Part shown: positions 7,229-52,520 of the stretch, piece after piece
Numbering within the stretch: the first letter of the stretch is position 1
Layout: each line of letters starts with the position of its first letter
DNA from: a virus
Virus record (IMG/VR): IMGVR_UViG_3300020417_001379
Location: 5,021-69,020 of that record
Length of the DNA: 64,000 nt
Direction: 5' to 3' (one strand)
Translations under genes and position numbers: made by a program
Notes under the pieces: generated by a model
What the model saw: only the letters and a program-made list of their open reading frames with translations
Told to the model about the DNA's origin: nothing
Database searches by the model: none

Positions 7229-7238
7229 GCGTGATTGT

Positions 7239-24717: not shown

Positions 24718-24950
24718 ACTATCGCCACCACATCACTTTCTCTCACAGCGAAGACATTGTTATAGCGGGCAACGGGAATTAGAATGTCGCCCTTTGTAAC
24801 TATAACTTTGTCTTCTACCTGTGCGTTTATGCTTACATCTGTTCCTTTTGAGACTATCTCAAAAACATGAGACTGTCCCATAATGAGACCGCTCTCGGTC
24901 TCTTCATCTTCCTGTCTCTTAATCAGTAGAAAGTTACCTAATGCTCTCAT
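24714..24950 (-). CDS. groES: co-chaperonin (GroES/Cpn10-like)
   Basis: MRALGNFLLIK...TESGLI...VRESDVVAIV; overlaps groEL start. Confidence 0.9.
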   Translation of the reverse strand: MRALGNFLLIKRQEDEETESGLIMGQSHVFEIVSKGTDVSINAQVEDKVIVTKGDILIPVARYNNVFAVRESDVVAIV

Positions 24951-27192: not shown

Positions 27193-27552
27193 TTAGCCAA
27201 AGCGCTTCTCAATGAGTATCGCTGTGAGGAATCTGTATAGTAAAGCCATCTCGTGCTTGAATCCCATAGGGTTCTTGCTATCAGTATCTATACCCATTAA
27301 AATACCGATAGTTAAACCACGAATGTAATCAACCGACCATTCATCTGCTTCTCCGAGATGCTTGACTATCTCATCGAAATGCTCATCATCGGGCAAAGCA
27401 AAATCTACATCGGCTAAATATGCTATGCAGTCTTTGATATATGCAACCTGCATAGAATTGTCCTCAGTAAGTATGTCCGCTAATAGCGGGTCTGTTCCGT
27501 ATGCGCTTACTGAGTTAATGAAGTCCAACATGAATCTCATCTCGTCTTCCAT
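27193..27552 (-). CDS. hypothetical protein
   Basis: 119 aa ORF with its own TTTATATGCGGATAG promoter. Confidence 0.6.
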   Translation of the reverse strand: MEDEMRFMLDFINSVSAYGTDPLLADILTEDNSMQVAYIKDCIAYLADVDFALPDDEHFDEIVKHLGEADEWSVDYIRGLTIGILMGIDTDSKNPMGFKHEMALLYRFLTAILIEKRFG

Positions 27553-36187: not shown

Positions 36188-36430
36188 TTAAACCTGTTGG
36201 TCTCGACCACGCAAGCAATCTTCCTTTGTTACTTCCATCACATTCTGAGCAAACGAAGTGCTTAACCATACGGCTACCACCTCACTCAGCATTTCCGGTG
36301 TCTCGGTCAAGGTGAAATGCAAGTCCCACAGCAGTAATCCTACTGCCTCGCCCATTTCGCCTATTTGTTTATCCATTCTCTCAACGAGGCTTTCAAGCCT
36401 CGCAAGAGTCGTCTCTGTCTCTGTATCCAT
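36188..36430 (-). CDS. hypothetical protein
   Basis: 80 aa ORF. Confidence 0.5.
   Translation of the reverse strand: MDTETETTLARLESLVERMDKQIGEMGEAVGLLLWDLHFTLTETPEMLSEVVAVWLSTSFAQNVMEVTKEDCLRGRDQQV
36204..36217 (-). promoter_or_regulatory. upstream motif TGCTTGCGTGGTCG (also 38812, 39401, 40636, 41439; variant 40697)
   Basis: Identical 14-mer about 10-11 nt upstream of TATA boxes of minus-strand genes. Confidence 0.7.
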
Positions 36431-36488
36431 AGATGAGTAGCGGGTATCGCTACATCAATTTCTTCCCATACTTTACCGGCTATAATAA

Positions 36489-36707
36489 TCACTTCCTTTC
36501 ATCGTATGGGCTGAATACTAACTTCAAATTGTTAAGTGTGCTTTCGTCATAATCTATAACGGTAAAAATAGTGCCCGACTTCAAATGGACTTCCAATGTT
36601 CCGTCTTCGGTCTCGACAATACCGGACACATCTCTCCTGTCTATCCACGCAACGCCCGTAGCGGTGCGTAGAGGCATAGTCCAATAGTCGTATTTCCTCT
36701 CGCTCAT
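36489..36707 (-). CDS. hypothetical protein
   Basis: MSERKYDYW...; downstream of promoter motif at 36722. Confidence 0.55.
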   Translation of the reverse strand: MSERKYDYWTMPLRTATGVAWIDRRDVSGIVETEDGTLEVHLKSGTIFTVIDYDESTLNNLKLVFSPYDERK

Positions 36708-36738
36708 GTATTCTACTCTTCCTGTCCGCATATAAATC

Positions 36739-38373
36739 TCACTCTTCTTCATCACTCATAAAGGCAGTAGCAACACTACCCATTACTTTACCCATAGTAA
36801 TATTCCACTTTGCGTTTGTTAGTATCATTGTAGCCTTCAAATTAGACACCGCTTGCTCCGTCTCTAAGACCCATGTTGTTAGGTCTTCAAGTGTAGGTAT
36901 GTTAGCCAATGCTTCTGCTTGCATTTTTACACACTCCGCTTCTATCTTCTCGTCATCCCACATTATAGCATCAGTATCATGGGTGCTTCGGTTGCATCCA
37001 TTCTTAATGTAGTAAGCCATACCCCAATAGTCTCTATTATCATGGTCTTCGTTTTCGTTGCTTAGGTAGTCCCTTGCTAAGTCGTAAGCCTTCTCGTTCT
37101 TGACCGCCACTCTAATGTTTTCAATGTCTTCCAACCATTCTTTAACGGCTATAATATCTTCCATTCCAAACCTTGTTAGTGCCCTGTCTAAACTCCAAGT
37201 CAAACTGTGGCCGAATGCTTCCGGTATCCAATCGTGGTTATACCTTTTTTTACTTAGGTTTAACATATATTCTATGTTTCTCCTTACCATACTGTGGTAA
37301 TCAGTCGGACTCCTTATGCTTGAGACTCTACCCTCAGCCTCTTGGAATGCCTTTCTGTAATCCTCGTAAGGTGTGTAAAGAACATCACTTACGCTCATGC
37401 CGTTTATGTTGAAGTATTCTCCGTCCTTTCTTGTGCATAGGAATTGCTTAAACACTTCTTTTTGCGCAGGCTTTGTTAGCATTTTAGTCAAGTAAAAAGA
37501 GCGAATTACTTTATCCGTTAAATAACTTGAATTGTTTTTCATGTCCTTCAAATTACTCTCTATACTTTCTTTAGCATTCTCAACATTCTTTTTAGCCCTA
37601 AACAAAGTCAAAGTCTTGTTGTATCCTTCACTCCAAATCTCTTGCTTGTTTTGGTTTGCCTTCCACTCATTGTATAGAGGTCTCATGCTCTCATAGAAAG
37701 CCTCGTTTGCTATAATTGCGTTGCTTCTCATGTTGTATGCTTGGTCGCTACTCGTGCTTGGGTTTAGCCTCGCTACCCATCTGTTACTCTCTGTGTGGGC
37801 ATCGTTTTGGTTGTTGTGCGTAATCATCAAACCGCCACGCTTGAAGGCATAGTAGAGGTTATCAAACATTCTCATACCCCAATGGTTGCCGTAACCGCCG
37901 AAGTCGTTTTCAAACTTCTTTAGTGTAATCCATCCCCCATAGTCATTCCACGCATTCATTCGCTTCATTTTATAGTATAGGTCTCCTGCTCCGCTCGACT
38001 TCTTCCTTACGCTTTGTCTGTCGGTGCTTGAGTAGTCGTTAGTCTTGAGGTCGTAAGCATAGACTAAAGCATCCCATCTATCAGTCTCTACCCACTTTTT
38101 ACCTACCCACTTGTAGTAGGTATATCTCTCATCCATTAGTCTAATACTTGTGGACATTCTGTTTTTTCTGTCTTCCAAGTCTTCAATATTGTTTATTGTT
38201 TTAACACGGCCAACAGAATTGTAAGACAAGCCCGTAGAATACTGCGTGTATCCTTCTTCGTTTTCGTCTATTCCTTCTGCCTCTGTTCCGTTACGGACTC
38301 TCTTAATTAATTTAGTCGTTGTATATATTCCATTCTTTTCATTCATTCTTCTTCCTCTCCTTTCTTTCCCCAT
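36739..38373 (-). CDS. hypothetical protein (544 aa)
   Basis: Long ORF; no recognised motif. Confidence 0.75.
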   Translation of the reverse strand: MGKERRGRRMNEKNGIYTTTKLIKRVRNGTEAEGIDENEEGYTQYSTGLSYNSVGRVKTINNIEDLEDRKNRMSTSIRLMDERYTYYKWVGKKWVETDRWDALVYAYDLKTNDYSSTDRQSVRKKSSGAGDLYYKMKRMNAWNDYGGWITLKKFENDFGGYGNHWGMRMFDNLYYAFKRGGLMITHNNQNDAHTESNRWVARLNPSTSSDQAYNMRSNAIIANEAFYESMRPLYNEWKANQNKQEIWSEGYNKTLTLFRAKKNVENAKESIESNLKDMKNNSSYLTDKVIRSFYLTKMLTKPAQKEVFKQFLCTRKDGEYFNINGMSVSDVLYTPYEDYRKAFQEAEGRVSSIRSPTDYHSMVRRNIEYMLNLSKKRYNHDWIPEAFGHSLTWSLDRALTRFGMEDIIAVKEWLEDIENIRVAVKNEKAYDLARDYLSNENEDHDNRDYWGMAYYIKNGCNRSTHDTDAIMWDDEKIEAECVKMQAEALANIPTLEDLTTWVLETEQAVSNLKATMILTNAKWNITMGKVMGSVATAFMSDEEE

Positions 38374-38503
38374 GCTCTTAACCTGTATTCGTAGGCTTTT
38401 ACTGTATATGTTGGGTCGCTTTTCTTTAGGCGGTAAAGTCCTGCATCTGCGTGCCTCTTCCTCGCCTTATACTTGCTAAAGTATCTTGCCTTCTCTCCTT
38501 TAT

Positions 38504-38770
38504 TCATTCTTCCTCGCCTCTGCTCTTGTCGTAAATAACCGTAGTGTAGCCATCTGAAATATCTTTTACCATTATTTTTGGGTTAGCACCAAGTCTAATC
38601 CAATGGCTTCTATCACTCTCACTAAACCAATTTCTTTTTTCGGTTTCTACATCAACACCACGCCACAGAATAATACCTGTGTCGCCTATGTGTCTTTGGT
38701 CTATTACCATCGTTCTTCCGTTATGCTTGTTGGCGTATGTAACGCCCATCTCAAAGGTCTCTTTGCTCAT
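38504..38770 (-). CDS. hypothetical protein
   Basis: ATG at 38770 after GGAG and TATA. Confidence 0.6.
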   Translation of the reverse strand: MSKETFEMGVTYANKHNGRTMVIDQRHIGDTGIILWRGVDVETEKRNWFSESDRSHWIRLGANPKIMVKDISDGYTTVIYDKSRGEEE

Positions 38771-38826
38771 ATTATCGTCTCCTTGTCTGTTGTTTATAAT
38801 GCTTTTTACTGCGACCACGCAAGCAT

Positions 38827-38994
38827 TCAGCGTGCTACTGCTCCCCCGCCGTTGTCTCGGTTGCTATACTTAGTCAAGCATGGGTCGCATATCCACGCCG
38901 TCATCCTGTTAGCATTCATCACCATTCTCAGAGGCACTTTTTTGGCCTCGCAAATTGGGCAGTCGCCCAAACTAAATCTAATCGTATCATCCAT
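38827..38994 (-). CDS. small Zn-finger protein (55 aa)
   Basis: CPIC...CDPC; read manually. Confidence 0.5.
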   Translation of the reverse strand: MDDTIRFSLGDCPICEAKKVPLRMVMNANRMTAWICDPCLTKYSNRDNGGGAVAR

Positions 38995-39012
38995 TTTCTT
39001 TACCCCCTATAA

Positions 39013-39360
39013 TTAGTAGTCCCACTCGTCTTCGTCTTCGTCATCATTGAGTCCGAACATATCATAAATGTCTTCCTCGCTGTATCTCTCATCGTCTCTA
39101 ATCTCTAAGTGGTCTTCAATCTCTATACCATCTATTTGAGGCATAATGCCTTGCCGGTATTTCTCTTGTAGTAATTCCTCTGCCTCTCGGTTAGTAATCC
39201 TCTTGTGTGTGGAGTCTTCGTGTGGCCTTTGCACATTTGTAAAATGTTTTAATTCGGGGTCTTGCATTCCTCTACAAGTCGGGCATTGGTTAGCCCTGCT
39301 CGTAGGGGAATAAAACTTCTTGTAACATACTATGCAGTATCGGTTCGGTTCTTCGCTCAT
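39013..39360 (-). CDS. Zn-finger protein with acidic tail
   Basis: CIVC...CPTC; ATG at 39360. Confidence 0.6.
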   Translation of the reverse strand: MSEEPNRYCIVCYKKFYSPTSRANQCPTCRGMQDPELKHFTNVQRPHEDSTHKRITNREAEELLQEKYRQGIMPQIDGIEIEDHLEIRDDERYSEEDIYDMFGLNDDEDEDEWDY

Positions 39361-39414
39361 ATTTCTTCCTCTCATCTGTCTTATTTAAACGCAACGCTTC
39401 CGACCACGCAAGCA

Positions 39415-39580
39415 GGTGCGGGGTTGTGAAGGCAATATGAAAAAATGAACCCGACAATTTATTCTTGTCTTTCTCACAGGGCACATCTCCCTCACAACCC
39501 CGACTTTTTGAGGTGCAATGCACCCTGCGAGTCGTGATTGGTGGGGTGAGCAGGGGACAACCCCTACCCACCCCTTGCGT
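39415..39580 (-). ncRNA. candidate structured RNA element (hairpin + pseudoknot)
   Basis: 14-bp hairpin 39543-39574; stem 39474-39487/39517-39530; loop 39490-39502 complementary to 39419-39432. Confidence 0.5.
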
Positions 39581-39596
39581 TCTTTTACCGTTATAC

Positions 39597-40563
39597 TTAG
39601 GCTACCGTCCTTGCTACTGCATCTGCCCATGCCTTGCCCTTAATGCGCTGTCCTGTTCCCATTATTGCGCTCTCTGCTCGGCGGTCATTCACTCGTCCGT
39701 CTTTGGTAGTTACCCAAGCGTGGTCTATGAAGTCGGTTACGACATTTACTGTTTGGAACAGCGTTCCGTCCATGTCGCCAATTTGGTTCTGTGGCTCTGC
39801 CTCAAGTGCAATCACTTGGTCGAGAATATTCTTGCCTCGTGTAGCAAGCCCGTAAGGGTTCTCTTTTGAAATCAATTCCTCGTTGGTCTGAATCGGCAGG
39901 TGTTCCAAGTAAAACTCTACTCTCTCGCCAATATCCATCTCTACTTCCAACATACCGAGAGCGTCCTCAGCCCATTGGTCTAACATTACATTAGTCATCT
40001 TCATGGCTTCCTTCATCTTCTCAATCTGCTCATCCATTTTTGAGGTGTGCCTAATTGTGAAGTAGTTACCTGTCTTTTTTGCTTCCCTCAGAACCATGTT
40101 CATTTGGTTTCCACAATTCATTCTAATGCAGTTAGGTATAACCCTAATAGCACCCGAACCATCGTGCGCATTTGTAAGCGTCATAAAGCCTTGAACCGGC
40201 TCATTTCCGTTAATCAGAATCTCATCCGGTAGAGCCAAATTGACCCAAAACTTTGCGCCATTATTTACTACCCCTATTTTATTAAACTCAAGGTCTGTTA
40301 CCTGCGTCAATTCGTGGGCTAACTGAGTTACTTCTTGGTGTTGCTTTACATGGTATGACTTACCTACTACTCCTAAGCAATCGTGCGTATCATCTCTAAA
40401 CACACCTCTATGCTTTTGGGTCAATACCTTGCCCCTTGTATCATATAGAGGCTCTAACTGAGCCTTCCATGTTAAGCCTGCGTTTTCGCAAACCTCTTTC
40501 GCTGTCGTTCCTATTGCGTCTTGGCCGAATGACCCCCACGCTTCTTGTCTTGCTGTCGTCATG
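39597..40563 (-). CDS. DUF932 / phage-plasmid-like protein (TIGR03299-like)
   Basis: AGLTW, R.DT..LGVVG..Y, TNAHDGSG, RMNCGN, IRHT motifs. Confidence 0.85.
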
Positions 40564-40812
40564 TTTTCATCTCCTGTATCCGGCTTCTTTGCCGATATTT
40601 GCTCCACCGACCATCTGCATTTAAAGATTCCGATTCGACCACGCAAGCACCCCTCGCGCGTATAGTATAGTAAAGAGAAATATACCCGTCAAAAAACGAC
40701 CACGCAAACAGAAAACGCTTGGAAGGGGTCATAGAGCCACGCAAATTGAAAATAGGTAGTAAGGTAGTGCCGACTATCTAAAACGGCTATATATAGCACT
40801 ATTTGGAATTAC

Positions 40813-40975
40813 GCTACATTTTGTAGCATAAAAAATTGTAGCAAAGAAATTGTAGCATAAACTTTGTAGCATAGAAATTTGTAGCATAAAAATTTGTAGC
40901 CTGCGCTCGCTCGCCTGCACGCTACAAAAAAAATTTGTAGCAAAGGGGGTCAGCCAAAAAAACCGATGCTACAAA
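40813..40975. repeat. tandem TTGTAGC repeats (~15-bp period), left boundary cluster
   Basis: Six direct copies at 40821-40900 plus inverted GCTACA copies. Confidence 0.9.
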
Positions 40976-40996
40976 CTTTTTTACTCGCAAAAAAAA

Positions 40997-41434
40997 TCAT
41001 GCGCACTTTCGGCACATGACTCTCATTGGGTTTGAAGTTATGTCGGACTTATGCACCTTTTTACTTTCATGGGCATTTATGTTTGCATTGCATCCAACGC
41101 ATACGCCTCTCGTATTGTAGAGCATCGAAATCACAGGGGCACTTTCAATAAAATTGGGGTCAATTTTCATTTTAGGCGCGACTATTTTAGGCGTTATACT
41201 TTCCTTGCGTAGTGCCCTCGCAATCTTGTTTGACCTGTGGTTGGGGCAGGTTTTCTTGTGGCTACGCCCCTTAATAGCGCCACAGCATGGGTGTCTCTCT
41301 CGACCTTCTGAATATCTACCATTGCTTGCGCCTAATCGCTTCTTTGAATCTCCGGTAGCGAGTCCGCCTTTGCGTCCTGCTTCCCGCTTTTGCTTGTCTA
41401 TCGGCTTGAATGTGCCGTCCTCATACCTGCGCAT
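40997..41434 (-). CDS. basic Cys/His-rich nucleic-acid-binding protein
   Basis: REAGRKGG, HPCC...H..C, CVGC...CRKC; divergent from the large RNA candidate. Confidence 0.55.
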   Translation of the reverse strand: MRRYEDGTFKPIDKQKREAGRKGGLATGDSKKRLGASNGRYSEGRERHPCCGAIKGRSHKKTCPNHRSNKIARALRKESITPKIVAPKMKIDPNFIESAPVISMLYNTRGVCVGCNANINAHESKKVHKSDITSNPMRVMCRKCA

Positions 41435-41520
41435 AATACGACCACGCAAGCATTTGCTTATGAACCTGTCGGTCAAGGCCAAAAATCGGAAGGTTTAAGT
41501 GCGGATAGCCTTCCGCCCCA

Positions 41521-42180
41521 ATTACTGCTACCGAGTAGTGGTGTTGGGAGATGGCTCGCCATCCCCTTCGGGACTGAACGATGTAAGATAGTCAAGTAAG
41601 TGAGCGAACATGAGATAAACAGAACGGAAGCACCCGAGCGGAAGTAGTTGAGACACGAAAAGCGACCAAAGGAGGAATACTCAGCACCTATACGCCCCCA
41701 CAGGGTAGGAAAGGAGCATTACTCACCGAAAGACTCCAAGCCTCGCAGGTAGCGGGTGAATCAGAGCAACGAGACACTTGAGGGATACTGAGCGAGGGTT
41801 GTTATGAATCTGTGGCTACGCCTGCCTCTCATTACCGAGAGGTGGGAAAGTCATCATTCATAGGCGAATTAGAACGGGTTTGGTCGGACGAGCAAGGGGT
41901 GTGGAAATCCCTTGAGCGGTGTCGGCTGAATCTTAGTAAGTCCATACCTTAAGCAAGTATGGGGGAAGTAGTATGAAGTGATGTGGCGAAAGAGCAATGA
42001 CCTGCCCACCATCCACCTCAGCGTAACGCGGGGCAATGGAGCGAAATGGTGCGGAGAGGGAGCGAAAGCGGTAGTTAGGTTGAAGGCGTAGGTGAGGGCG
42101 TGGTAAGCCCAAGACCCGTAAAGCGTGCGGTTGGTGGACAGATAGCAGTAAGGCATTCGGAGAATGTTCAGTCCCACCTA
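41521..42180 (+). ncRNA. candidate large ornate ncRNA (~630-660 nt)
   Basis: No credible ORF; promoter TTTAAGTGCGGATAG at ~41495; end pairing 41522-30/42143-51; long-range pairs and many hairpins with UUCG/GNRA-type loops. Confidence 0.65.
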
Positions 42181-42557
42181 TATTTAATGGTGAAAGAAAA
42201 ACAAGAAAATTGTAGCATGAACAAAAAGTAGGAGGTTATTTGTAGCATATAGAAATGTAGGATTGGATTTTTGTAGCAAGAGGCGCGATACCTAACCTTA
42301 ATAAAGGTTTTCTTTTAGGGGTTATTTGTAGCATACTAACTTTGTAGCAAAACACTTGGCGGTGGTATGGATACTTGGTGCATTTTTCACACTAACTTTT
42401 TTTTGTAGCATAAGCATTTTTACACGCGCAACATTTTTTTGTAGCATACTTTTTTTGTAGCAAAGCACGACACGACATTACGCTACAAATTTGTAGCATA
42501 GGGGGGAACAGACTTGCTACAAAAAAACCTTATAAGGGCAACCCCACTCGGAGTATC

Positions 42558-42764
42558 ATGGACAATTACACGAAGCGAGATGAAGCACACACGCATTGCG
42601 ACCATTGCAGGACAGAATACTTTAAGTGTTATATTAGTGAGTTTGGGTATAGCCTGTGGGTATGCAGATGCACCCAAGACGCTTGCCCTCATGGGTTTTA
42701 TAATTTGATGCTCGACAACAGAATTAGCAAGGTAAAAGGCTCGGAGCGTAATTTAGTTTGGTAA
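42558..42764 (+). CDS. cassette 1: small Cys-rich protein
   Basis: ATG 44 nt after motif-promoter at 42514; CDHC...CRC. Confidence 0.65.
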   Translation: MDNYTKRDEAHTHCDHCRTEYFKCYISEFGYSLWVCRCTQDACPHGFYNLMLDNRISKVKGSERNLVW

Positions 42765-42932
42765 AACCCGCAAGAATAGGCAAAAACCGCCTTTTTTCGC
42801 ATGAAAGCAAAAATTTGTAGCATAAGTTAGCGAAAACCCCGTATTGCTACAAATTTGTAGCATAAGGGGGTAAAACCGTAGCCTACCATGCTACAAAAAA
42901 GACTTAAGTAGGGATACCCCGTCCGCTCAAAT

Positions 42933-43088
42933 ATGACGACATGGACGGCAATGACCCCCGCGTATATTGATATGCTATTGGACACGAGACACAGTAAAGA
43001 GGCAAAAGATTTAGCCATTAAAGAATTAATGAAAATGGCTCGTGCCCTTGACGCTTACCAACAGGTATTCGGTATGGAAGAAGAATGA
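42933..43088 (+). CDS. cassette 2a: small helical protein (51 aa)
   Basis: ATG 45 nt after motif at 42888; MTTWTAMTPAYIDMLL...ELMKMARALD. Confidence 0.65.
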   Translation: MTTWTAMTPAYIDMLLDTRHSKEAKDLAIKELMKMARALDAYQQVFGMEEE

Positions 43089-43129
43089 AGCAGGACAAGA
43101 CTTATAAGCAAAACAGGAGTGGAAGAAAT

Positions 43130-43285
43130 ATGGAAGAAGACGAGACGACAGAATATGTGGATATAACACCGAGTAACGAAGGTATGGCTATGATGCTATG
43201 GGAATTAGCAATGAACCATACTGACTATGAAAAGAGAGAATGGGCCAAGATGAAATTAATTAAGGGCTATTTAGCAGGTGAATGA
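43130..43285 (+). CDS. cassette 2b: small helical protein (51 aa)
   Basis: Own TTATAA at ~43102; MEEDETTEYVDITPS... Confidence 0.6.
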   Translation: MEEDETTEYVDITPSNEGMAMMLWELAMNHTDYEKREWAKMKLIKGYLAGE

Positions 43286-43508
43286 GTAACGGAGAATGAG
43301 TAAGACCCAACCCCGCCTCGCCCACGAAGAGGAAGCGTGGAGGACAAGTGCGGGGGGGCATCATTTTTTCGTGCGCGCAAAAATTTGTAGCATAGTGCTT
43401 TTTTGGGGCTACGCATATACGCTACAAATTTGTAGCATACGGAAGTAAATACACACGCTCGATATGCTACAAAAAAACCTTATAACCCCCTACCCCTTCG
43501 GCTCTAAT

Positions 43509-43790
43509 ATGGAGAAAGACGACATACGACTTGACGACTGCGGACATATTGTGATGGATAAGGACATGACTGACCTTTGGGTTAGAACCCCGAAAGGTTT
43601 GATTGCTATACACCTTAACCAATACACCGGCCTTTACCACATGACTGCTTGGAACACCCATGAAGGAAATAAGATGAGCAAGAAAAAAGAGGGCAACGGA
43701 TATTTCAAGATAGCCCAAGAGATGAGCGGAACATATAGCGAGGAAAAAGCAAGATACAAAACAGGCATGATACACACTCCCACGCCTTGA
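43509..43790 (+). CDS. cassette 3: hypothetical protein
   Basis: ATG 45 nt after motif at 43464; followed by GC hairpin and T-run. Confidence 0.65.
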   Translation: MEKDDIRLDDCGHIVMDKDMTDLWVRTPKGLIAIHLNQYTGLYHMTAWNTHEGNKMSKKKEGNGYFKIAQEMSGTYSEEKARYKTGMIHTPTP

Positions 43791-44000
43791 GATACTTTGG
43801 CGTTAGAAGTCGGATACTCGACCCCCCAAAGCGCGCGGGGGGTCGGGTGGCGCATTTTTTATACCCGTTAAAAATTTGTAGCATAGCAACAGTAGGTGTT
43901 GTAAAACACACTAAGTTACAAATTTGTAGCATACCGACCGTGAGAGTAGGATACCTATGCTACAAAAAAACCTTATAAGGGGGTATGGGGTCGCAGGACT

Positions 44001-44264
44001 ATGGAGCGAAGGTTCGCAATGGTATGCCTGCACGAGACAGACACGATGGAAGACGGAACAGTTAGATATATTCCGTGTTGCATTAAAGAGGGAGTCGCCG
44101 GTTACTTCCCTATGAGGGGAAACCCCGACAAGTTACAAAGCGCTTGGTATTGGGGTAAGACGCATGAGGAATGTTCCGAGATATGCGATATTTACAACCA
44201 AGACTTAGGTTTAACGGCTGAAGATGTTAGGGAGATTATAGCAAGTAGCATGAGACTTTCTTGA
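44001..44264 (+). CDS. cassette 4: hypothetical protein
   Basis: ATG 44 nt after motif at 43957; hairpin at ~44270-44300. Confidence 0.7.
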   Translation: MERRFAMVCLHETDTMEDGTVRYIPCCIKEGVAGYFPMRGNPDKLQSAWYWGKTHEECSEICDIYNQDLGLTAEDVREIIASSMRLS

Positions 44265-44439
44265 ATTGGGGCGGGGGTTCTCAACCCCCCCGTTCCTTTT
44301 GGCTCTCAAAAATTTGTAGCATAGGGATTCCTTTTTTGGGCGTAACGAGGTGGGCTACAAATTTGTAGCATACATACCGTAACCACTACTGAGTTATGCT
44401 ACAAAAAAAGGTTATAACCATATACCCCAACCGCGATAC

Positions 44440-44757
44440 ATGAAGCGACAACGCGACATAAGGACGCACAACCGAGACAGGTTCAAGGGCGCGCGCCTCA
44501 ACGATGAAGAAAGAAAGGAATGCGCAAGCATCATGGAGAGACTACGAGGGCAAAAGCCTGCGAGATTCGCAACAGGCACAAGCACACTTGTAGTCCTCAA
44601 GGAGATTGCATGGAGAGAAGCAGAAGGGTCAAGCGGGGACTTGATTTGTTGTATTGTCCGTAATGGTGTGGAAAATACTTGGATGCTACGAGGCAAGAAC
44701 CAAATGAAAGGCAGTAAAGAAAAATTACGAGTAAAGAAGATTCTATGGGGATACTGA
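44440..44757 (+). CDS. cassette 5: basic hypothetical protein
   Basis: ATG 44 nt after motif at 44396; hairpin at ~44775-44803. Confidence 0.7.
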   Translation: MKRQRDIRTHNRDRFKGARLNDEERKECASIMERLRGQKPARFATGTSTLVVLKEIAWREAEGSSGDLICCIVRNGVENTWMLRGKNQMKGSKEKLRVKKILWGY

Positions 44758-44948
44758 GATTCTACGGGTATTGTGGGCGGGGGGACGCATCACCCCCCGT
44801 CCCAAACCTTATGCACGACAGAAATTTGTAGCATAGCGTAACAAACACAACAACAACACACACTACAAATTTGTAGCGTATCTCGGTAGAGAAAACAACG
44901 CTATTATGCTACAAAAAAAGGTTATATATGGATACCCTGTCCGCTAAA

Positions 44949-45238
44949 ATGTAAGTGGGGGGCGAACTGAACACTCGCCCCCATGAAGACCGGAGTTATA
45001 CCCCCGAAGGCAAGTAGGGCAGGTAAAGAGCCGGTGCGTCCCTAACTGCAACGCCAATAAGACAGGATACACGCACACGAGAAGACCCCTCTCCGAGTCG
45101 AGTGAAAAAGGGTGGCCGATATTTTCAGAAAGCGTAACACTTACCCGACCTGCCCACGAGTTAGGCATAACGCGTGGGTTGCCCCTGTTTAGGGGTAAGT
45201 CCCTGTTTGTTCGCAGGCGATTGGTCGGCAATTTTTTT
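44949..45238 (+). ncRNA. cassette 6: candidate structured ncRNA (~290 nt)
   Basis: Standard cassette promoter at 44906 but ATG is followed immediately by TAA; many complementary segments; ends in a T7 run. Confidence 0.65.
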
Positions 45239-45524
45239 AGCGCTCATAAAAATTTGTAGCATATCTTTCTATTGTTTCCGCACGCTACTGAAAGAATAAA
45301 ACGCATGACTGCTACAAATTTGTAGCAATTATTTTATTTCTTCATATATGTTTTAGATTACTTCTCTATTACTAAAAATACTAATGAAAGAATTAATTAA
45401 TTACAAATTTGTAGCGTAGTATAGCGTTTAATTAATTTTGTTGGCTACAAAAACAAAAAAATAAATAACGATGCTACAAAAAAACCTTATAAGCAAATAC
45501 CTTTAGGGTCGGTTTGGTGATACA

Positions 45525-45680
45525 ATGCTAACGCGCAGACACTTTGAGGCGATTGCCTCTATTATACAGATGAAAGAAAGCCGAACAGAAAAAATGATTG
45601 CATACGAGACCATTAGGCCGATTTGCATGGAGAACCCCCGCTTTGATGAAGCCAAGTTTCTCAAGGCTTGCGGGATTTGA
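45525..45680 (+). CDS. cassette 7: small protein with NPRFD..KF..AC motif (51 aa)
   Basis: GGTGA SD; MLTRRHFEAIA...NPRFDEAKFLKACG, a pattern I recall from small phage proteins. Confidence 0.7.
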   Translation: MLTRRHFEAIASIIQMKESRTEKMIAYETIRPICMENPRFDEAKFLKACGI

Positions 45681-45883
45681 GTAGGTTGGGGGTTCGCCCC
45701 CTTCCTCTCTTTTCTTTGGCCGTTAAAAATTTGTAGCATAACGACAACAAAAAAGGCGCGCGTTGCTTACACGCACGAGGCTACAAATTTGTAGCGTAGC
45801 CCGCTTATGCGTGCGCGCGGGGCGTAACACCCTTGACCTATGCTACAAAAAAAGGTTAAATAGGCATACCCCTTCGTCTGTTT

Positions 45884-46027
45884 ATGTGCGAGTATTACGA
45901 CAAGTATTGGGCATTAGTGAAGGCAATAAGAGAAAGCACAGGCAAGGGAACAGAAACACTTGTCTGTATAGATGATATATTATATAACATAGACACAGGC
46001 CAACTCTTCTGCCCTTACGCGCCTTGA
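45884..46027 (+). CDS. cassette 8: small protein (47 aa)
   Basis: ATG 44 nt after motif at 45840. Confidence 0.6.
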   Translation: MCEYYDKYWALVKAIRESTGKGTETLVCIDDILYNIDTGQLFCPYAP

Positions 46028-46282
46028 GCGGAGCGCGTTTGCGCTTATAATCTTTTCTTTAGCGCTGAAAAATTTGTAGCATAACCCCGCAACGGTTTTG
46101 CGCGCACGCGCTTTTCTTGATAAGCCACAAATTTGTAGCATAGGGTGTAAGGGTTTGCGCGCGTGGCGTTTGCCGTATCACACTACAAATTTGTAGCATA
46201 CTTACTCATACACGCTGAAGCGAAAAAGCGCGCGACCTATGCTACAAAAAAACCTTATAAGTAGATACCCGCTCCGATAAAC

Positions 46283-46447
46283 ATGAGCAAGAGAGGCGAG
46301 ATAGTCTTCACCTACAAAGGCATATTAGAGTTATACGACTGCACCTGCTGTAAGGGGACAGATGAATTCCCCGAAGTAGAGCCGGACGAGTCCGGCGTTT
46401 ATTGCTACACCTGCGGGGCTTCAGCCTCGTGGCCTAAGCCCGCATGA
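46283..46447 (+). CDS. cassette 9: small Zn-finger protein (54 aa)
   Basis: ATG 44 nt after motif at 46239; CTCC...CYTC. Confidence 0.65.
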   Translation: MSKRGEIVFTYKGILELYDCTCCKGTDEFPEVEPDESGVYCYTCGASASWPKPA

Positions 46448-46760
46448 GCGAGAGGCCAAATTTTGTAGCATAATTTCTTTAGCCCGTAAAAATTTGTAGC
46501 ATAGCGTGAGCGTTGCGCGCGCAACGGCGCGTAAGTATATAGGTTACAAATTTGTAGCATAGCGCGCTTAACCCTACGCCCCCGCACCTTACTGTATTAG
46601 ACTACAAATTTGTAGCATAGACCGCTTGTGTTCCCCGCCCCCCGTTGCCCCCACGAGTTATGCTACAAATTTGTGGTCTGCCTACTCGCTATTGCTTCCC
46701 CGCTATGCTACAAAAAAACATTATAAGGGGATACCCACCCCGATAGAACGAGGTATCAAT

Positions 46761-47078
46761 ATGGAAGATATGAGATATGAAATGAAAGCAGACTGCGGGG
46801 ACGCTCAAGAGCGTTCCTATGAGTGGGAGCAACCCCACGAAAAAGAGGCGTTTGAAAACGCCGTAGATGGCGTTAAATGCCCTTGCTGTGGGTCAAGCGA
46901 CCTTGTAATGTGCGACCGTGAATTAATGGGTAGAGACACCTATTATGATATGGAAGACGATTGGGGCTACGAAACCTACGAATACAGGTTTTGGGCGCAA
47001 TGCACAGGCGTAGAGAGCGGTGAGTGCAAGCATGACGAATGGATAATGATTTATGGGGAAGTCGAAATAGATTACTGA
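46761..47078 (+). CDS. cassette 10: acidic Zn-ribbon protein
   Basis: GAGGT SD; CPCC...C...C; hairpin at ~47087-47105. Confidence 0.7.
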   Translation: MEDMRYEMKADCGDAQERSYEWEQPHEKEAFENAVDGVKCPCCGSSDLVMCDRELMGRDTYYDMEDDWGYETYEYRFWAQCTGVESGECKHDEWIMIYGEVEIDY

Positions 47079-47435
47079 AAAGGTTTGGGGGGGCTTTGCC
47101 CCCCCTTACGCTTTACTGTGTAAATATTTGTAGCATAGGTTTTTTTAACCCCTAAAAAAATTTGTAGCATAGCGACACACGCGGGCGGGCAAACGCACAG
47201 AGTAACAACGCTACAAATTTGTAGCATAACAACGCTTAACATACCCACCCCCTACCCCCTAAACGCTAAGTTACAAATTTGTAGCACCGACCCCCTACAC
47301 AACGCGCGCGCGAAAGACGCAGGAGTTAAGATACAAATTTGTAGCATGGTTGGTTGTAACGCAAGCGCGCGAGCGAAAAACAAACCGCGCTATGCTACAA
47401 AAAAGAGTTATAAGGGAATACCCCCACCGCCAATC

Positions 47436-47630
47436 ATGCCTTACTTGAGCATGGAACAAGCCGAAGAAATGTATGATGATATGATAGACGAAATATACGG
47501 AGAGGTAAAGGTTGGAGTAACATTCAACGCCTCTCGCGTATTGAAGGAGTTAGACCCCATTGCGTATAGATGCGGGTTCAACGACTACATGGACAGCCTC
47601 TTTGAAGACGGTTACACCTTAATGGATTAA
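47436..47630 (+). CDS. cassette 11: small acidic protein (SRVLKELDPIAYRCGFNDY motif)
   Basis: ATG 44 nt after motif at 47392. Confidence 0.7.
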   Translation: MPYLSMEQAEEMYDDMIDEIYGEVKVGVTFNASRVLKELDPIAYRCGFNDYMDSLFEDGYTLMD

Positions 47631-47637
47631 GCGAGTA

Positions 47638-47668
47638 AGTCCCGCCTTCGGGCGGGCTTCGCTTTTTT
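47638..47668 (+). terminator. hairpin terminator AGTCCCGCC-TTCG-GGCGGGCT + T-run
   Basis: cUUCGg stem-loop then TTTTT; similar hairpins follow most cassettes. Confidence 0.7.
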
Positions 47669-48094
47669 AGGGCGCAAAGATATTTGTAGCATGGCTTTTT
47701 TTAGACTTTGAAAATATTTGTAGCATACGCTTTTTTAGACTCTGAAGAAAATTTGTAGCAAGCGGTTTTTAACAAAAAAAAAAATTTGTAGCATAGCAAA
47801 AAAAAATTTGTAGCATAGCAAATTAATAAAAAATCGTCAAAAATTAATAATTAATAATATGCTACAAAAAAATAATAATTTGTAGCATAGATAACCCCGA
47901 AATCATGCTACAAAAAAAGGCCGAAATCATGCTACAAAAAAAGGTCAAAATTAGTTATTAATTAACCCTAAAAATTAGGCTACAAAAAATACGCTTGGCG
48001 CGGTCAGAAAAAAAGCAAAAACCCCGAAATTAGCCCCTAATCGGCGACACTATCATAAGGGGTGCTTATCTCCCAATTGATGAGGTGAACAAGT

Positions 48095-50922: not shown

Positions 50923-51044
50923 TACATCGGCCTCAATTTTTTCTGATTACAATACGGACAGATACCTGCTTCTGCTTTAGATTTCATCATGCGGTTGGCT
51001 TTCCACCCGCAACCATCACATTCAGCAGATACCCATTCAACCAT
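50922..51044 (-). CDS. small Zn-ribbon protein (40 aa)
   Basis: CDGC...CPYC; bridges phosphoesterase and terL with overlapping stop/start. Confidence 0.6.
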   Translation of the reverse strand: MVEWVSAECDGCGWKANRMMKSKAEAGICPYCNQKKLRPM

Positions 51045-52497
51045 GTCTTACCACCGGACAGAAGAGATGGCCTATAACGCCTTGCTCCTTATCTATTATA
51101 TGCGCGCTCATGCCCGCCTTATTCATTGTATAACCCTTTTTGTAATGGTATCTATCGTGGCCTGCAAGACTTGGTAACTGCATAATCAAAGCACCGTTCA
51201 TTTCAGTAGTCTTCATGTGGTGCAAGTGCCCATGAAACCAAGTGTGGTTCTCCAAGTCTCCCCAAGCCTGCCTTTCTTCGGTAGCCATGAGAGCAGGAAG
51301 GTCATTACCCTTCACACCATCTCCATGTGTAAAACCTAAGAGGTTGTTACCGTAGTGTAGGTATTGACGAGTCTTAGGGTCGCATACAACCTGCACTTCG
51401 TCAGTATCCTCATACACCGCGTCAAGATACATCATAAGAGCCAAAGCACTATGCCTATCGTGATTACCGCGCATGAATACTACCTCTACCGGACACACAG
51501 CCCTAAGCATATCAATATGTTCTCTTGCTAACTTACAGCCTTCCATTAGAATCTGAGCGGGACTGCCCGCCATATCCTGTGGTGTGCCTTTTGTCGTTCC
51601 GCCGTTTTCGTTATCTATGTGAAACCAATCAGAACCCGTAGCAACAATAATCTTTTCCGGCCTACCCGCAAATCTACTGATTAGATTAGCGGTAGAAGAA
51701 AGAAGGCGCTCACGAGCAATCTCTAAAGAATACTCTTCGCCTACTTCGTCCTTCCATCCATGCTTACCGTAGTGCAAGTCTGTTGGAGACATAACTACTG
51801 CGTAAGGTGCATCTGATTTCTCAATCTTGTATGGTTTTACTTTAGTAGCCTTTTGTCCGATTAAAGACTTGAATTCGTTAGCCCAAGTCTCTTGTAGTAG
51901 TCTGTAATTATCAGCATCCTTCTCTATGCTTGCCCAATATTTCTTAGCGGACTTTTCTAATATCTTGTTACGCTTGATATTGACGCTTTCTTCTACTAAA
52001 TCATCTATTGTGCGACTTTGTATTTCTTCATCGGTATAAATATCCATACCGTGAGTCCAACCGCACATCTTTACATAATTACTAAGGAATGATGTAGGTA
52101 ACTTGAATTTTCTACTCATCTGTTCGATAGTATCTCCTTCGCCATCGTCAGAGTAGGATTTCTTCATTTGCCTGTGCATTTCTCCGTCTATTTTTACTAT
52201 ACCTGTATTATCCAAGTTAGCAGTCAAATAAACATCGTTCTTTTCATCGTAATACATTGTAGTATGCCTATCTACCGGCGATATACTATCATAGTCTTCT
52301 TTCTTCAATAAATCCTTTACCGTAGAGTCTTGCATCTTAGCCCAACGATATGTCCTTGTTCTCCAAGCCTCTACACTACATCTCGGCTCTAACTTGTGCA
52401 GATACCGCGCCAATTCTCTTATGTTCGCCCATGACCTCTCATTCACCGCTTTTTCGATTAAATCATAGCCGCCAACGAAGTTTTCTTTCGTCCCCAT
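51037..52497 (-). CDS. calcineurin-like metallophosphoesterase with N-terminal HTH region
   Basis: DLHYG, GSDWFH, GNHD, HGD, GHLHH. Confidence 0.85.
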   Translation of the reverse strand: MGTKENFVGGYDLIEKAVNERSWANIRELARYLHKLEPRCSVEAWRTRTYRWAKMQDSTVKDLLKKEDYDSISPVDRHTTMYYDEKNDVYLTANLDNTGIVKIDGEMHRQMKKSYSDDGEGDTIEQMSRKFKLPTSFLSNYVKMCGWTHGMDIYTDEEIQSRTIDDLVEESVNIKRNKILEKSAKKYWASIEKDADNYRLLQETWANEFKSLIGQKATKVKPYKIEKSDAPYAVVMSPTDLHYGKHGWKDEVGEEYSLEIARERLLSSTANLISRFAGRPEKIIVATGSDWFHIDNENGGTTKGTPQDMAGSPAQILMEGCKLAREHIDMLRAVCPVEVVFMRGNHDRHSALALMMYLDAVYEDTDEVQVVCDPKTRQYLHYGNNLLGFTHGDGVKGNDLPALMATEERQAWGDLENHTWFHGHLHHMKTTEMNGALIMQLPSLAGHDRYHYKKGYTMNKAGMSAHIIDKEQGVIGHLFCPVVRHG

Positions 52498-52520
52498 GAA
52501 CACCCGTATGTGCAAGATAC

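What the first reader, a model, noticed from the sequence alone, without database searches (positions are those of the whole stretch)
41495..42180. Large ornate non-coding RNA candidate in an archaeal virus
Seen: ~660 nt, purine-rich, without a credible ORF, downstream of TTTAAGTGCGGATAG (same promoter class as the replication genes). Closing helix TTACTGCTA 41522-30 / TAGCAGTAA 42143-51. Long-range pairs CGACCAAA 41663-70 / TTTGGTCG 41879-86 and CACCTATACGCC 41685-96 / GGCGTAGGTG 42085-94. Local hairpins at ~41550, 41821, 41893, 41942 and 42096. Established: ROOL and GOLLD are large structured RNAs of this size class associated with bacterial phages. Inference: a relative of these or a new class.
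Basis: partly seen in the sequence, partly recalled or inferred. Interest (0 to 1): 0.85.

Follow-up and report, generated by a model that had tools for sequence, protein, structure and literature searches.

The report
Expressed non-coding RNA gene in archaeal virus
A marine archaeal virus carries a roughly 650-base gene that makes RNA but no protein and turns up in seawater RNA samples; it belongs to no known RNA family, and there is little sign that it folds into an elaborate shape.

Summary
The stretch is real. It is about 650 nt, 60% purine, and has no credible ORF in any frame or under any single stop reassignment. It lies in a 69-kb marine tailed virus that looks like a group C magrovirus. 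A purine-rich stretch, TTTAAG and TGCGGATAG sit about 26 nt before 41524. The same TGCGGATAG box follows the TATA boxes of replication genes. RNA-library contigs from 3 studies lie only within 41524-42177.

No Rfam family matches, ROOL and GOLLD included. Folding energy is no better than shuffled sequence (z -0.68). Two hairpins show compensatory changes.

Related viruses hold an ORF-free counterpart at the same place, with the same promoter but unrelated sequence. A more distant relative has none.

Verdict: a genuine, lineage-restricted, fast-evolving viral non-coding RNA co-regulated with replication genes. "Ornate" and "ROOL/GOLLD relative" are not supported, and the function is inferred only.

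The parts
41450..41474 (-). Block of 25 nt identical in the window, L001, L003 and L004. Read on the - strand it holds a TATA-like TTCATAAG about 26 nt before the ATG (41434) of the 145-aa gene, so it is the probable leftward promoter of that gene.
   Evidence: identical block in an otherwise ~70% identical region; upstream context. The promoter role is inferred.
41487..41508 (+). Rightward promoter of the RNA: purine-rich BRE-like CGGAAGG (41487-41493), TATA-like TTTAAG (41494-41499) and the proximal box TGCGGATAG (41500-41508).
   Evidence: L001 has CGAAAGG+TTTAAG at the same place. TGCGGATAG occurs 5 times exactly, and the other four lie in the replication module; two of those were seen directly after TTTATA. 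Spacing to 41524 fits the archaeal TATA-to-start distance of about 26 nt (established knowledge; inference).
41524..42177 (+). Body of the non-coding RNA, about 654 nt. The ends are approximate and are taken from the outermost RNA-library contigs.
   Evidence: contigs X6 41524-42128, X8 41524-42148, X17 41540-42112, 42083-42177 and 42083-42162, X18 41546-41798 and 41837-42076. Strand is inferred from promoter direction, purine richness and G-U pairs in the hairpins.
41524..41542 (+). Hairpin ACUGCUAC-CGA-GUAGUGGU (8 bp, two G-U pairs).
   Evidence: T41526C in L003 and L004 turns U-G into C-G.
41546..41567 (+). Hairpin with core GAUGG-CUCG-CCAUC (41550-41563), extended by GGG/CCC.
   Evidence: L004 has A41551G together with T41562C (A-U to G-C), and its loop changes from CUCG to UUCG (columns 28/39: AU 2, GC 1).
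41821..41846 (+). Longest local hairpin: CCUGCCUCUC-AUUACC-GAGAGGUGGG (10 bp, two G-U pairs). L001 has a hairpin that starts with the same ACCUGCC.
   Evidence: There is no variation among the close relatives.
41893..41914 (+). Hairpin CAAGGGGU-GUGGAA-AUCCCUUG (8 bp).
   Evidence: In the X18 contig, 41900 and 41901 change in the loop, while 41899 and 41908 are the stem's inner G-U pair and that pair is lost.
41941..41963 (+). Hairpin UCCAUAC-CUUAAGCAA-GUAUGGG (7 bp).
   Evidence: T41945C occurs together with A41959G (U-A to C-G) in L003 and in the RNA contig of X17. RNAalifold placed these two columns in other, long-range pairs.
41570..41579 (+). 5' arm of the best long-range pair: GGGACUGAAC with GUUCAGUCCC (42166-42175), 10 bp perfect. 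It would close almost the whole RNA.
   Evidence: A 10-mer pair is found in 33 of 500 shuffles. There is no variation to test it.
42166..42175 (+). 3' arm of that 10-bp pair. It ends 2 nt before the last RNA-contig base (42177).
41602..42065 (+). Four copies of GAGCGA (41602, 41790, 42039, 42060). The counterpart in L001 has three more.
   Evidence: 7 copies against 0.63 expected, 0 of 300 shuffles; the copies share no structural context.
40997..41434 (-). Divergently transcribed 145-aa Cys-rich gene of no known family. It marks the locus in relatives.
   Evidence: 22 homologues, most of them starting at MRR; no Pfam match; model pLDDT 68.5; no fold match at E<=0.001.

Best explanation
The region 41524-42177 (+) is a real non-coding RNA gene of a magrovirus-like tailed virus of marine archaea.

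Inferred: the host RNA polymerase starts near A41524, about 26 nt after a TTTAAG box that is preceded by a purine-rich stretch. The TATA box is followed directly by TGCGGATAG, the same box that follows the TATA boxes of replication-module genes. The RNA would therefore be made together with the replication proteins, and not with the small rightward genes that are governed by TTGTAGCA repeats.

Shown: the product has no translatable frame. It carries several stable, tetraloop-capped hairpins, two of which keep pairing through double changes. It evolves at roughly half to the full synonymous rate, and its counterpart in the next related virus keeps the promoter and position but not the sequence.

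Inferred, weakest step: it acts in trans as an RNA during the replication phase. The most likely role is a protein-binding scaffold or decoy built from hairpins and repeated short motifs (GAGCGA is enriched in both versions), a design that tolerates rapid sequence turnover. A precisely folded machine is less likely.
For: Non-coding:
- The longest internal + strand ORF is 46 aa with a GTG start.
- The + frames carry 10-16 stops of all three kinds.
- The 102-aa antisense ORF is frameshifted in L003, giving 94 aa with a different end.
- The ORF fragments have no Pfam hit at E<=1.
- tblastx finds no protein-level similarity between the three counterparts beyond the shared promoter block.

Promoter:
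- CGGAAGG+TTTAAG in the window matches CGAAAGG+TTTAAG in L001.
- TGCGGATAG occurs 5 times exactly, and the other four copies lie in the replication module on the coding strand. My arithmetic gives about 0.5 expected for a 9-mer in 2 x 64,000 positions. Two copies were seen directly after TTTATA, about 30 nt before an SD-like GGTGA or the ATG.

RNA:
- 8 of the 20 runs that hold the stretch are RNA libraries, from 3 studies.
- In the 4 runs laid, the contigs on the stretch are 41524-42128, 41524-42148, 41540-42177 (three pieces) and 41546-41798 plus 41837-42076. None bridges into a flanking gene, and there were no joints or loose ends.
- The DNA assemblies L003 and L004 run straight through these ends.
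- In X17, a run of 6.7 million letters, a 572-nt contig has word depth 4.9.

Structure:
- A41551G with T41562C, and T41945C with A41959G, keep two hairpins paired. T41526C turns U-G into C-G.
- G-U pairs in the hairpins fit the + strand only.

Constraint:
- Against L004, 19 of 226 columns differ (8.4%), while flanking pS is 0.175-0.185.
- Against L003, 31 of 654 columns differ (about 21 events), while pS is 0.048-0.055.

Motif:
- GAGCGA occurs 7 times against 0.63 expected across the window and L001 versions, in 0 of 300 shuffles.
Against: - Contigs cannot show strand, ends or level. The runs were chosen because they hold this stretch, and RNA libraries can contain DNA (the tool's own caveats).
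- The 5' ends agree exactly only within one study (41524 twice). The other two studies give 41540 and 41546.
- Folding energy is ordinary: z -0.17 and -0.68 for the RNA, against -2.15 and -0.35 for two coding controls.
- Of the substituted positions that the single-sequence fold pairs, about as many break the pair as keep it. Examples are 41545, 41673, 41636, 41639, 41648-41649, 41978-41979 and 42132.
- RNAalifold found only 1 of 155 pairs with a double change, and it drew a different global fold.
- Only three near-identical DNA sequences exist for the window type.
- The complete relative G001 and the relative G002 show no sequence similarity (best E 0.35-0.52).
- G011 has the neighbouring genes but no such block.
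- The GAGCGA copies share no structural context.
- No binding partner is known, so the scaffold or decoy role is pure inference.
Confidence: 0.55

Rival explanations
1. One reading: a large, ornately folded RNA of the ROOL/GOLLD kind, either a distant relative or an analogous new class. It would have a defined tertiary or multimeric architecture closed by long-range helices.
For: - The size (about 650 nt), the virus setting and the presence in RNA libraries fit.
- Many hairpins are capped by UUCG/CUCG or GNRA-type loops.
- Long-range perfect complements are somewhat above shuffles: 8-mers 8 against 2.08, reached by 6 of 500 shuffles.
- A 10-bp pair, 41570-41579/42166-42175, brackets the RNA.
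- Two hairpins show compensatory changes.
Against: - No Rfam hit even at E<=10 in the window region, and none in L001 or L005 at E<=1.
- MFE z-scores are -0.17 and -0.68.
- The single-sequence fold and the alignment fold disagree globally.
- The sequence is not retained in viruses whose neighbouring protein is 66-73% identical.
- The counterpart lengths differ widely, at about 395, 654 and 615 nt.
Confidence: 0.12
2. A replication-linked transcript. Transcription through this spot, at the junction of the leftward replication module and the rightward genes, would open or prime an origin by R-loop or primer formation. The act of transcription would matter more than the RNA sequence.
For: - It shares the promoter class of the replication genes.
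- It lies at the minimum of cumulative GC skew, about 40-41 kb.
- It is flanked on both sides by repeat arrays.
- Position and promoter are conserved while the sequence is free to change.
Against: - The skew minimum coincides with the switch of gene direction, so it is not independent evidence.
- The TTGTAGCA repeats continue over 7 kb in front of each small gene and look like promoter operators, not iterons.
- No AT-rich unwinding block is seen inside the stretch, which has GC 0.49.
- Compensatory changes and below-synonymous divergence point to selection on the RNA itself.
- The RNA persists as contigs of 570-630 nt in RNA libraries.
Confidence: 0.12
3. A transcribed spacer without a function of its own. 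It would be the remnant of a lost gene, or filler behind a strong promoter, whose RNA survives because it contains stable hairpins.
For: - The interval differs completely between relatives. L005 holds an intact 65-aa ORF plus about 600 nt, L001 holds 395 nt, and G011 has nothing comparable.
- Purine richness equals that of coding strands in this genome.
- Divergence from L003 is close to the synonymous level.
- There is no thermodynamic signal.
Against: - Neither tblastx nor tblastn finds a trace of a former gene.
- Divergence from L004 is about half of pS.
- There are two compensatory hairpin changes.
- The GAGCGA enrichment is shared with L001.
- A consensus-like promoter is kept in two lineages.
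Confidence: 0.12
4. A messenger for one or more very small proteins, for example the 36-aa frame with an ATG at 41981-42091.
For: - That frame is intact and identical in L003.
- It lies in the least variable part: one change in four variant sequences.
- Its LSVTRGNGAK resembles LSVARQKGAK at the end of a 46-aa ATG frame in L001, with different Ser and Arg codons.
Against: - The frame starts about 460 nt from the apparent 5' end and has no SD-like sequence.
- The resemblance covers 10 residues and scores 16.6 bits, which is near chance for this search space.
- The one variant seen is non-synonymous (C42027T).
- No frame is shared with L005.
- There are no family hits.
Confidence: 0.07
5. Not an RNA at all: the matches in RNA libraries would come from contaminating viral DNA or from assembly chance.
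For: The tool warns that DNA can be present in RNA libraries and that holders were selected for this stretch.
Against: - The result comes from four runs of three studies.
- Every contig on the stretch ends inside 41524-42177, while DNA assemblies continue on both sides.
- A promoter stands at the right distance.
Confidence: 0.04

Closest known systems
ROOL and GOLLD RNAs (large RNAs often carried by phages and prophages; cryo-EM shows homo-oligomeric assemblies; PMC12286853, abstract seen in the listing)
   Same: Several hundred nucleotides long, virus-borne, non-coding and of unknown function. All were found or seen through abundance in environmental or transcript data.
   Different: No covariance-model match. 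The host domain is archaeal, not bacterial. There is no conserved core among relatives and no evidence of an elaborate fold.
phi29-family packaging RNA (pRNA; recalled, no call)
   Same: A virus-encoded RNA that acts as RNA. Its primary sequence drifts fast between related viruses while position and role are kept.
   Different: pRNA is about 170 nt, has a conserved secondary structure and sits next to the packaging genes. Here the lengths differ (395-654 nt), no shared fold has been shown, and the promoter class is that of the replication genes.
Protein-sequestering RNAs with repeated short motifs, such as CsrB/RsmZ (recalled, no call)
   Same: Works-like comparison only: many hairpins, a short motif repeated above chance (GAGCGA), and tolerance of rapid sequence turnover.
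   Different: The motif is different and is not consistently in loops. No partner protein has been identified, and those RNAs come from bacteria.
Tan1, a 229-nt abundant non-coding RNA of the marine group II archaea themselves (PMC5069720, passages read)
   Same: An abundant non-coding RNA without an Rfam family, from the same ecosystem and the presumed host group.
   Different: It is cellular, not viral, and a third of the length. Its sequence sits in a figure or supplement that I could not read, so no comparison was possible.

Membership tests
ROOL / GOLLD / OLE / HEARO and other large Rfam RNAs | Match to the family's covariance model (sequence plus structure) at or near the gathering score | tested here: not met
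   0 matches in the whole window at gathering. 0 matches at E<=10 in 41000-42700 on both strands. 0 matches at E<=1 in L001 and L005.
Group II intron (a GTGCG at 41499-41503 recalls the 5' GUGYG; motif recalled) | Domain V/VI and D1-D4 models in Rfam; the 5' GUGYG must lie at the RNA's own start | tested here: not met
   No Rfam intron model matches. GTGCG lies before the first RNA-contig base, 41524. No reverse transcriptase or interrupted gene was seen.
RNase P, SRP, tmRNA, tRNA-like and ribosomal fragments | Rfam or ARAGORN match | tested here: not met
   (no match). (0 tRNA or tmRNA genes in the window).
Structured RNA in general (covariation standard) | Several helices kept through changes on both sides in independent lineages | tested here: inconclusive
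   Two hairpins each show one double change. RNAalifold gives 1 of 155 pairs. Only 3 near-identical sequences exist, and the more distant counterparts cannot be aligned.
Structured RNA in general (thermodynamic standard) | Folding energy clearly below dinucleotide shuffles | tested here: not met
   z -0.17 for 41495-42180 and -0.68 for 41524-42177. The coding controls give -2.15 and -0.35.
Archaeal BRE/TATA promoter | An A/T-rich box about 26 nt before the start, with a purine-rich element directly upstream of it | tested here: met
   CGGAAGG-TTTAAG at 41487-41499, with the first RNA-contig base at 41524. It is conserved in L001. The rightward genes show TTATAAG-type boxes 27-33 nt before their ATG. 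The start site itself is inferred from contigs only.
Replication-class promoter of this virus | A TATA box followed directly by TGCGGATAG | tested here: met
   5 exact copies: 23199, 26176, 27177 and 27583 on the - strand, and 41500 on the + strand. Two gene contexts are shown.
Magroviruses (group C-like), as described in PMC5434244 (passages read) | Tailed-virus morphogenesis genes; PolB, clamp and RFC; a GroEL-type chaperonin in the replication cluster; a PolD-exonuclease-like gene inside the structural module; marine origin | tested here: inconclusive
   Terminase, portal, PolB, a weak processivity-factor hit, an RFC-like AAA protein, a Cpn60 protein, and a phosphoesterase/exonuclease between terminase and portal were found. 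The runs are marine. No primase, MCM or capsid match was obtained, no tree was made, and the genome is 69 kb against the roughly 100 kb reported.

The most novel reading that the evidence does not exclude
This may be the first example of a large, highly expressed regulatory or architectural RNA of archaeal tailed viruses. It would be a replication-phase RNA of magroviruses, one of the most abundant marine virus groups. Under this reading it is built from exchangeable hairpin modules and GAGCGA repeats, captures a host or viral protein or assembles into a higher-order particle, and evolves so fast that each virus lineage carries its own version behind a conserved promoter.
Probability: 0.3. Interest if true: 0.8.

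Novelty: new variant of a known kind. Interest (0 to 1): 0.58.

Why it matters
Magroviruses infect uncultured marine group II archaea and rank among the commonest viruses in surface oceans (PMC5434244 passages; bioRxiv 10.1101/2025.10.05.680483 passages). Their study has been entirely protein-centred.

My searches of the held library found no paper on a non-coding RNA of these viruses. If a dedicated RNA gene switched on with the replication genes were confirmed, it would add an RNA layer to archaeal virus-host interaction. It would also give metatranscriptome studies a strain-specific marker of active infection.

The locus is also a warning. Size, purine richness and hairpins alone do not make an ornate RNA.

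Tried and rejected
**Rfam and repeats**
- Rfam gave nothing at either threshold on the window, nor on two relatives.
- ARAGORN found nothing.
- Repeats inside the stretch are short two-copy matches only.

**Similarity searches**
- blastn of the stretch against 50,697 phage records found no match.
- A search of the complete records G001, G002 and G003 gave best E 0.35-0.52, which is chance.
- Complementarity of the RNA to the virus's own genome gave only matches of 13 nt or less at chance level, so I dropped an antisense role.

**Looking for more versions of the locus**
- Protein- and pattern-guided scans of viral contigs returned only two relatives' contigs plus one distant contig without the element.
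- One metagenome scan gave two close relatives, L003 and L004.
- The genome contigs protein scan found nothing.
- The genome contigs pattern scan gave 16 loci in unrelated bacteria. By blastn and tblastx they are chance hits.
- 40 PolB-related loci were found. Of the 21 handles I sent, 19 records were searched (2 not held) and only 2 carry the DUF932 neighbour. G011 was fetched and shows an AT-rich junction with other repeats and no comparable block.

**Motifs and neighbours**
- TTTAAGTGC with up to 1 mismatch is not enriched (20 against 23.1). The informative box turned out to be TGCGGATAG.
- The GAGCGA copies showed no common pairing state.
- The 145-aa neighbour gave a model of pLDDT 68.5 and no Foldseek match at E<=0.001, so it offers no clue to an RNA partner.

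**Read laying**
- In X8, X17 and X18 nothing else in 37000-47000 is covered.
- In X6 only four short pieces are covered, at word depth 4.56-10.9 against 42.4 on the RNA.
I therefore do not count this as evidence of relative abundance.

**Tools and files that were unavailable**
- As a result, the contigs of the 22 homologues of the neighbour gene could not be fetched.
- Supplements are closed and I did not ask for them. Table S5, the datasets and Figure 5 of PMC5069720 (Tan1 sequence) and Table S1 of PMC5434244 (genome list) could bear on identity and novelty.
Full report
**What is there**

The window is bases 5021-69020 of a single 69,020-bp virus record. The 9-nt pair 41522-41530/42143-42151 is a perfect inverted repeat, and the five local hairpins exist.

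The stretch is 60% purine. On the + strand, no ORF lying inside it exceeds 46 aa, and that one starts with GTG. A 69-aa + strand frame (41390-41599) begins upstream of the promoter and runs only into the first 76 nt. The three + frames contain 15, 16 and 10 stops of all three kinds, so no single stop reassignment opens a frame. The only long frame is antisense (102 aa), and a 1-nt deletion changes it in the 97%-identical relative L003, giving 94 aa with a different end. None of eight ORF fragments from this stretch and its counterparts reached a Pfam cut-off; only the 65-aa L005 ORF gave two hits, both far below the cut-off.

**The virus**

The following genes were identified:
- a terminase, a portal-like protein and a family B DNA polymerase;
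- a weak processivity-factor hit and an RFC-like AAA+ protein;
- a Cpn60-type chaperonin inside the replication cluster;
- a phosphoesterase-type exonuclease between terminase and portal.

The polymerase's best named relatives are haloarchaeal tailed viruses at about 24% identity. Its unnamed relatives run to hundreds in marine data, and all runs that hold the stretch are marine.

This set of genes fits the published description of magroviruses, especially group C, which has a GroEL-type chaperonin and a PolD-exonuclease homologue inserted in the structural module (PMC5434244, passages read). I did not find a primase, MCM or capsid match and made no tree, so 'group C-like magrovirus' is an inference.

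**Promoter**

The interval 41435-41523 holds two back-to-back promoters.

A 25-nt block (41450-41474) is identical in the window, L003, L004 and the much more distant L001. Read leftward, it puts a TATA-like TTCATAAG about 26 nt before the ATG of the 145-aa gene.

Rightward, CGGAAGG-TTTAAG (41487-41499) is matched by CGAAAGG-TTTAAG in L001. This is the classical arrangement of a purine-rich BRE abutting a TATA box (established knowledge). It is followed at once by TGCGGATAG.

That 9-mer occurs exactly five times in the window. The other four copies are on the - strand inside the replication module. In the two contexts I printed, it directly follows TTTATA ahead of genes 24950-26143 and 27193-27552. 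My first test, TTTAAGTGC with one mismatch, showed no enrichment.

The small rightward genes use a different design: TTGTAGCA repeats, then an inverted copy, an A run and a TTATAAG-type box 27-33 nt before the ATG.

**Transcript**

Twenty public runs hold the stretch. Eight of them are RNA libraries, from three studies. I laid four RNA runs on 37000-47000. The contigs on the stretch are:
- X6: 41524-42128
- X8: 41524-42148
- X17: 41540-42112, 42083-42177 and 42083-42162
- X18: 41546-41798 and 41837-42076

None reaches into a flanking gene, and there are no joints or loose ends. The metagenome assemblies L003 and L004 run through both ends.

The first contig base, 41524, is an A after a T, about 26 nt from the centre of the TATA box. 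Contigs cannot prove a start, an end, a strand or a level, and these runs were selected for holding the stretch. I therefore treat the ends as approximate and transcription as well supported but not proven. The + strand is inferred from the promoter, the purine bias and the G-U pairs in the hairpins, which would be A-C mismatches on the other strand.

**Is it elaborately folded?**

The evidence is thin.
- Energy. The z-score is -0.17 for 41495-42180 and -0.68 for 41524-42177. Two coding controls of the same length gave -2.15 and -0.35.
- Hairpin count. Hairpins of 5 bp or more number 25 against 19.2 +/- 3.8 in shuffles.
- Long-range complements. These are modestly enriched: 8-mers 8 against 2.08, reached by 6 of 500 shuffles; 10-mers reached by 33 of 500.
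- Best long pair.
- Closing helix. That helix loses 2 nt to the 5' end and gains a C-A mismatch through T41526C in L003 and L004. The same change improves the local hairpin 41524-41542.
- Compensatory changes. Two double changes keep local hairpins paired: A41551G with T41562C in L004, and T41945C with A41959G in L003 and again in the X17 RNA contig.
- Broken pairs. About as many substitutions break pairs of the single-sequence fold as keep them. RNAalifold on the three sequences drew a different global fold, with 1 of 155 pairs doubly changed, and placed 41945 and 41959 in other pairs.

I conclude that some local hairpins are under selection and that a global architecture is not established.

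**Relatives**

The neighbouring 145-aa protein has only 22 homologues in 5.8 billion clusters. The polymerase has hundreds, so the locus marks a narrow sub-lineage.
- G001 is a complete 72-kb genome whose neighbour protein is 66-73% identical. The same place there holds a 395-nt ORF-free, purine-rich stretch behind the same promoter.
- In G002 the interval holds a 65-aa ORF plus about 600 nt.
- Neither relative shows nucleotide or translated similarity to the window's RNA beyond the promoter block. L007 and G011 have nothing comparable.

Within the close cluster the RNA differs from L004 in 19 of 226 columns (8.4%), where flanking pS is 0.175-0.185. It differs from L003 in 31 of 654 columns, or about 21 events once the alignment resolves a shifted block, where pS is 0.048-0.055. 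This indicates moderate constraint at best, and it would erase similarity at the distance of G001.

One shared feature did emerge. GAGCGA occurs four times in the window RNA and three times in the G001 counterpart, against 0.63 expected (0 of 300 shuffles). By my Poisson arithmetic this survives correction for 4096 hexamers. The copies share no pairing context.

**Known families**

No Rfam model matches the window, the region at E<=10, or the two relatives. This covers ROOL, GOLLD, OLE, HEARO, RNase P, SRP, introns and ribozymes. There are no tRNA-like genes. The GTGCG that recalls a group II intron start lies upstream of the transcript. Membership in any described family is therefore not met.

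**Mechanism**

I commit to a trans-acting viral RNA made with the replication genes, which most probably works through bound proteins as a scaffold or decoy.
- Shown: the non-coding nature, the promoter class, presence in RNA libraries and selection on two hairpins.
- Inferred: the start site, the strand, abundance and the mode of action.

The rivals are scored in their own section: an ornate folded RNA, an origin-linked transcript, a functionless transcribed spacer, a micro-peptide messenger and DNA carry-over.

**Novelty**

Searches of the held library found no paper on a non-coding RNA of magroviruses or Poseidoniales viruses. Two papers were searched for such terms. The nearest item is Tan1, a 229-nt abundant RNA of the host group (PMC5069720, passages read), and I could not read its sequence. 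I rate this a new variant of a known kind (virus-borne large non-coding RNA), restricted to a small lineage.

**Limits**

- Supplements are closed.
- Only one call each of the look-up of sequencing runs and read laying was allowed, so the counterparts in G001 and G002 were not tested for expression.

Noticed in passing
window 40821-47937: TTGTAGCA occurs 66 times against 2.8 expected, almost all between 40.8 and 47.9 kb. The copies form arrays of direct repeats that end in an inverted copy, followed by an A run and a TTATAAG-type box 27-33 nt before the ATG of each small rightward ORF. In seven cases the inverted copy starts 43-44 nt before the ATG. This looks like an operator plus leaderless archaeal promoter cassette for a separate gene class.
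   Followed up: partly
window 36204-41449, - strand: TTGCGTGGTCG occurs six times exactly against 0.47 expected. All copies are on the - strand, upstream of leftward genes including the DUF932 gene and the 145-aa gene. This is a third promoter or operator class.
   Followed up: partly
L052 1593-4284 (G011): A relative with a 62%-identical polymerase uses another repeated cassette in front of 8-9 small genes: GACGCTTGCGAG, then a TTAAATA-type box, then GGAGA and the ATG. Its divergent junction (L052 4912-5450) is AT-rich and carries three copies of a 43-nt repeat that ends in GGTATATATAC.
   Followed up: no
L005 2702-2896 (- strand of the locus): In G002 the interval that corresponds to the RNA begins with an intact 65-aa acidic ORF that has no counterpart in the window or in G001. 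Its only Pfam hits are sub-threshold.
   Followed up: partly
window 51037-52515, - strand: A 492-aa phosphoesterase-type exonuclease (phrog_704, 5.9e-62) sits between the terminase and the portal-like gene, as described for the PolD-exonuclease homologue of group C magroviruses.
   Followed up: partly
window 7221-15260 and 54657-60473, + strand: Two giant ORFs of 2679 and 1938 aa. They were not examined.
   Followed up: no
L007 1600-2600: A more distant relative repeats TTGTTGGTAA in front of its small genes instead of TTGTAGCA. The repeat word seems to be lineage-specific.
   Followed up: no
protein P0048: A 62%-identical polymerase on a 69-kb contig is filed in a public database under a Legionellales metagenome bin. 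It is probably a virus contig binned with a bacterium.
   Followed up: no
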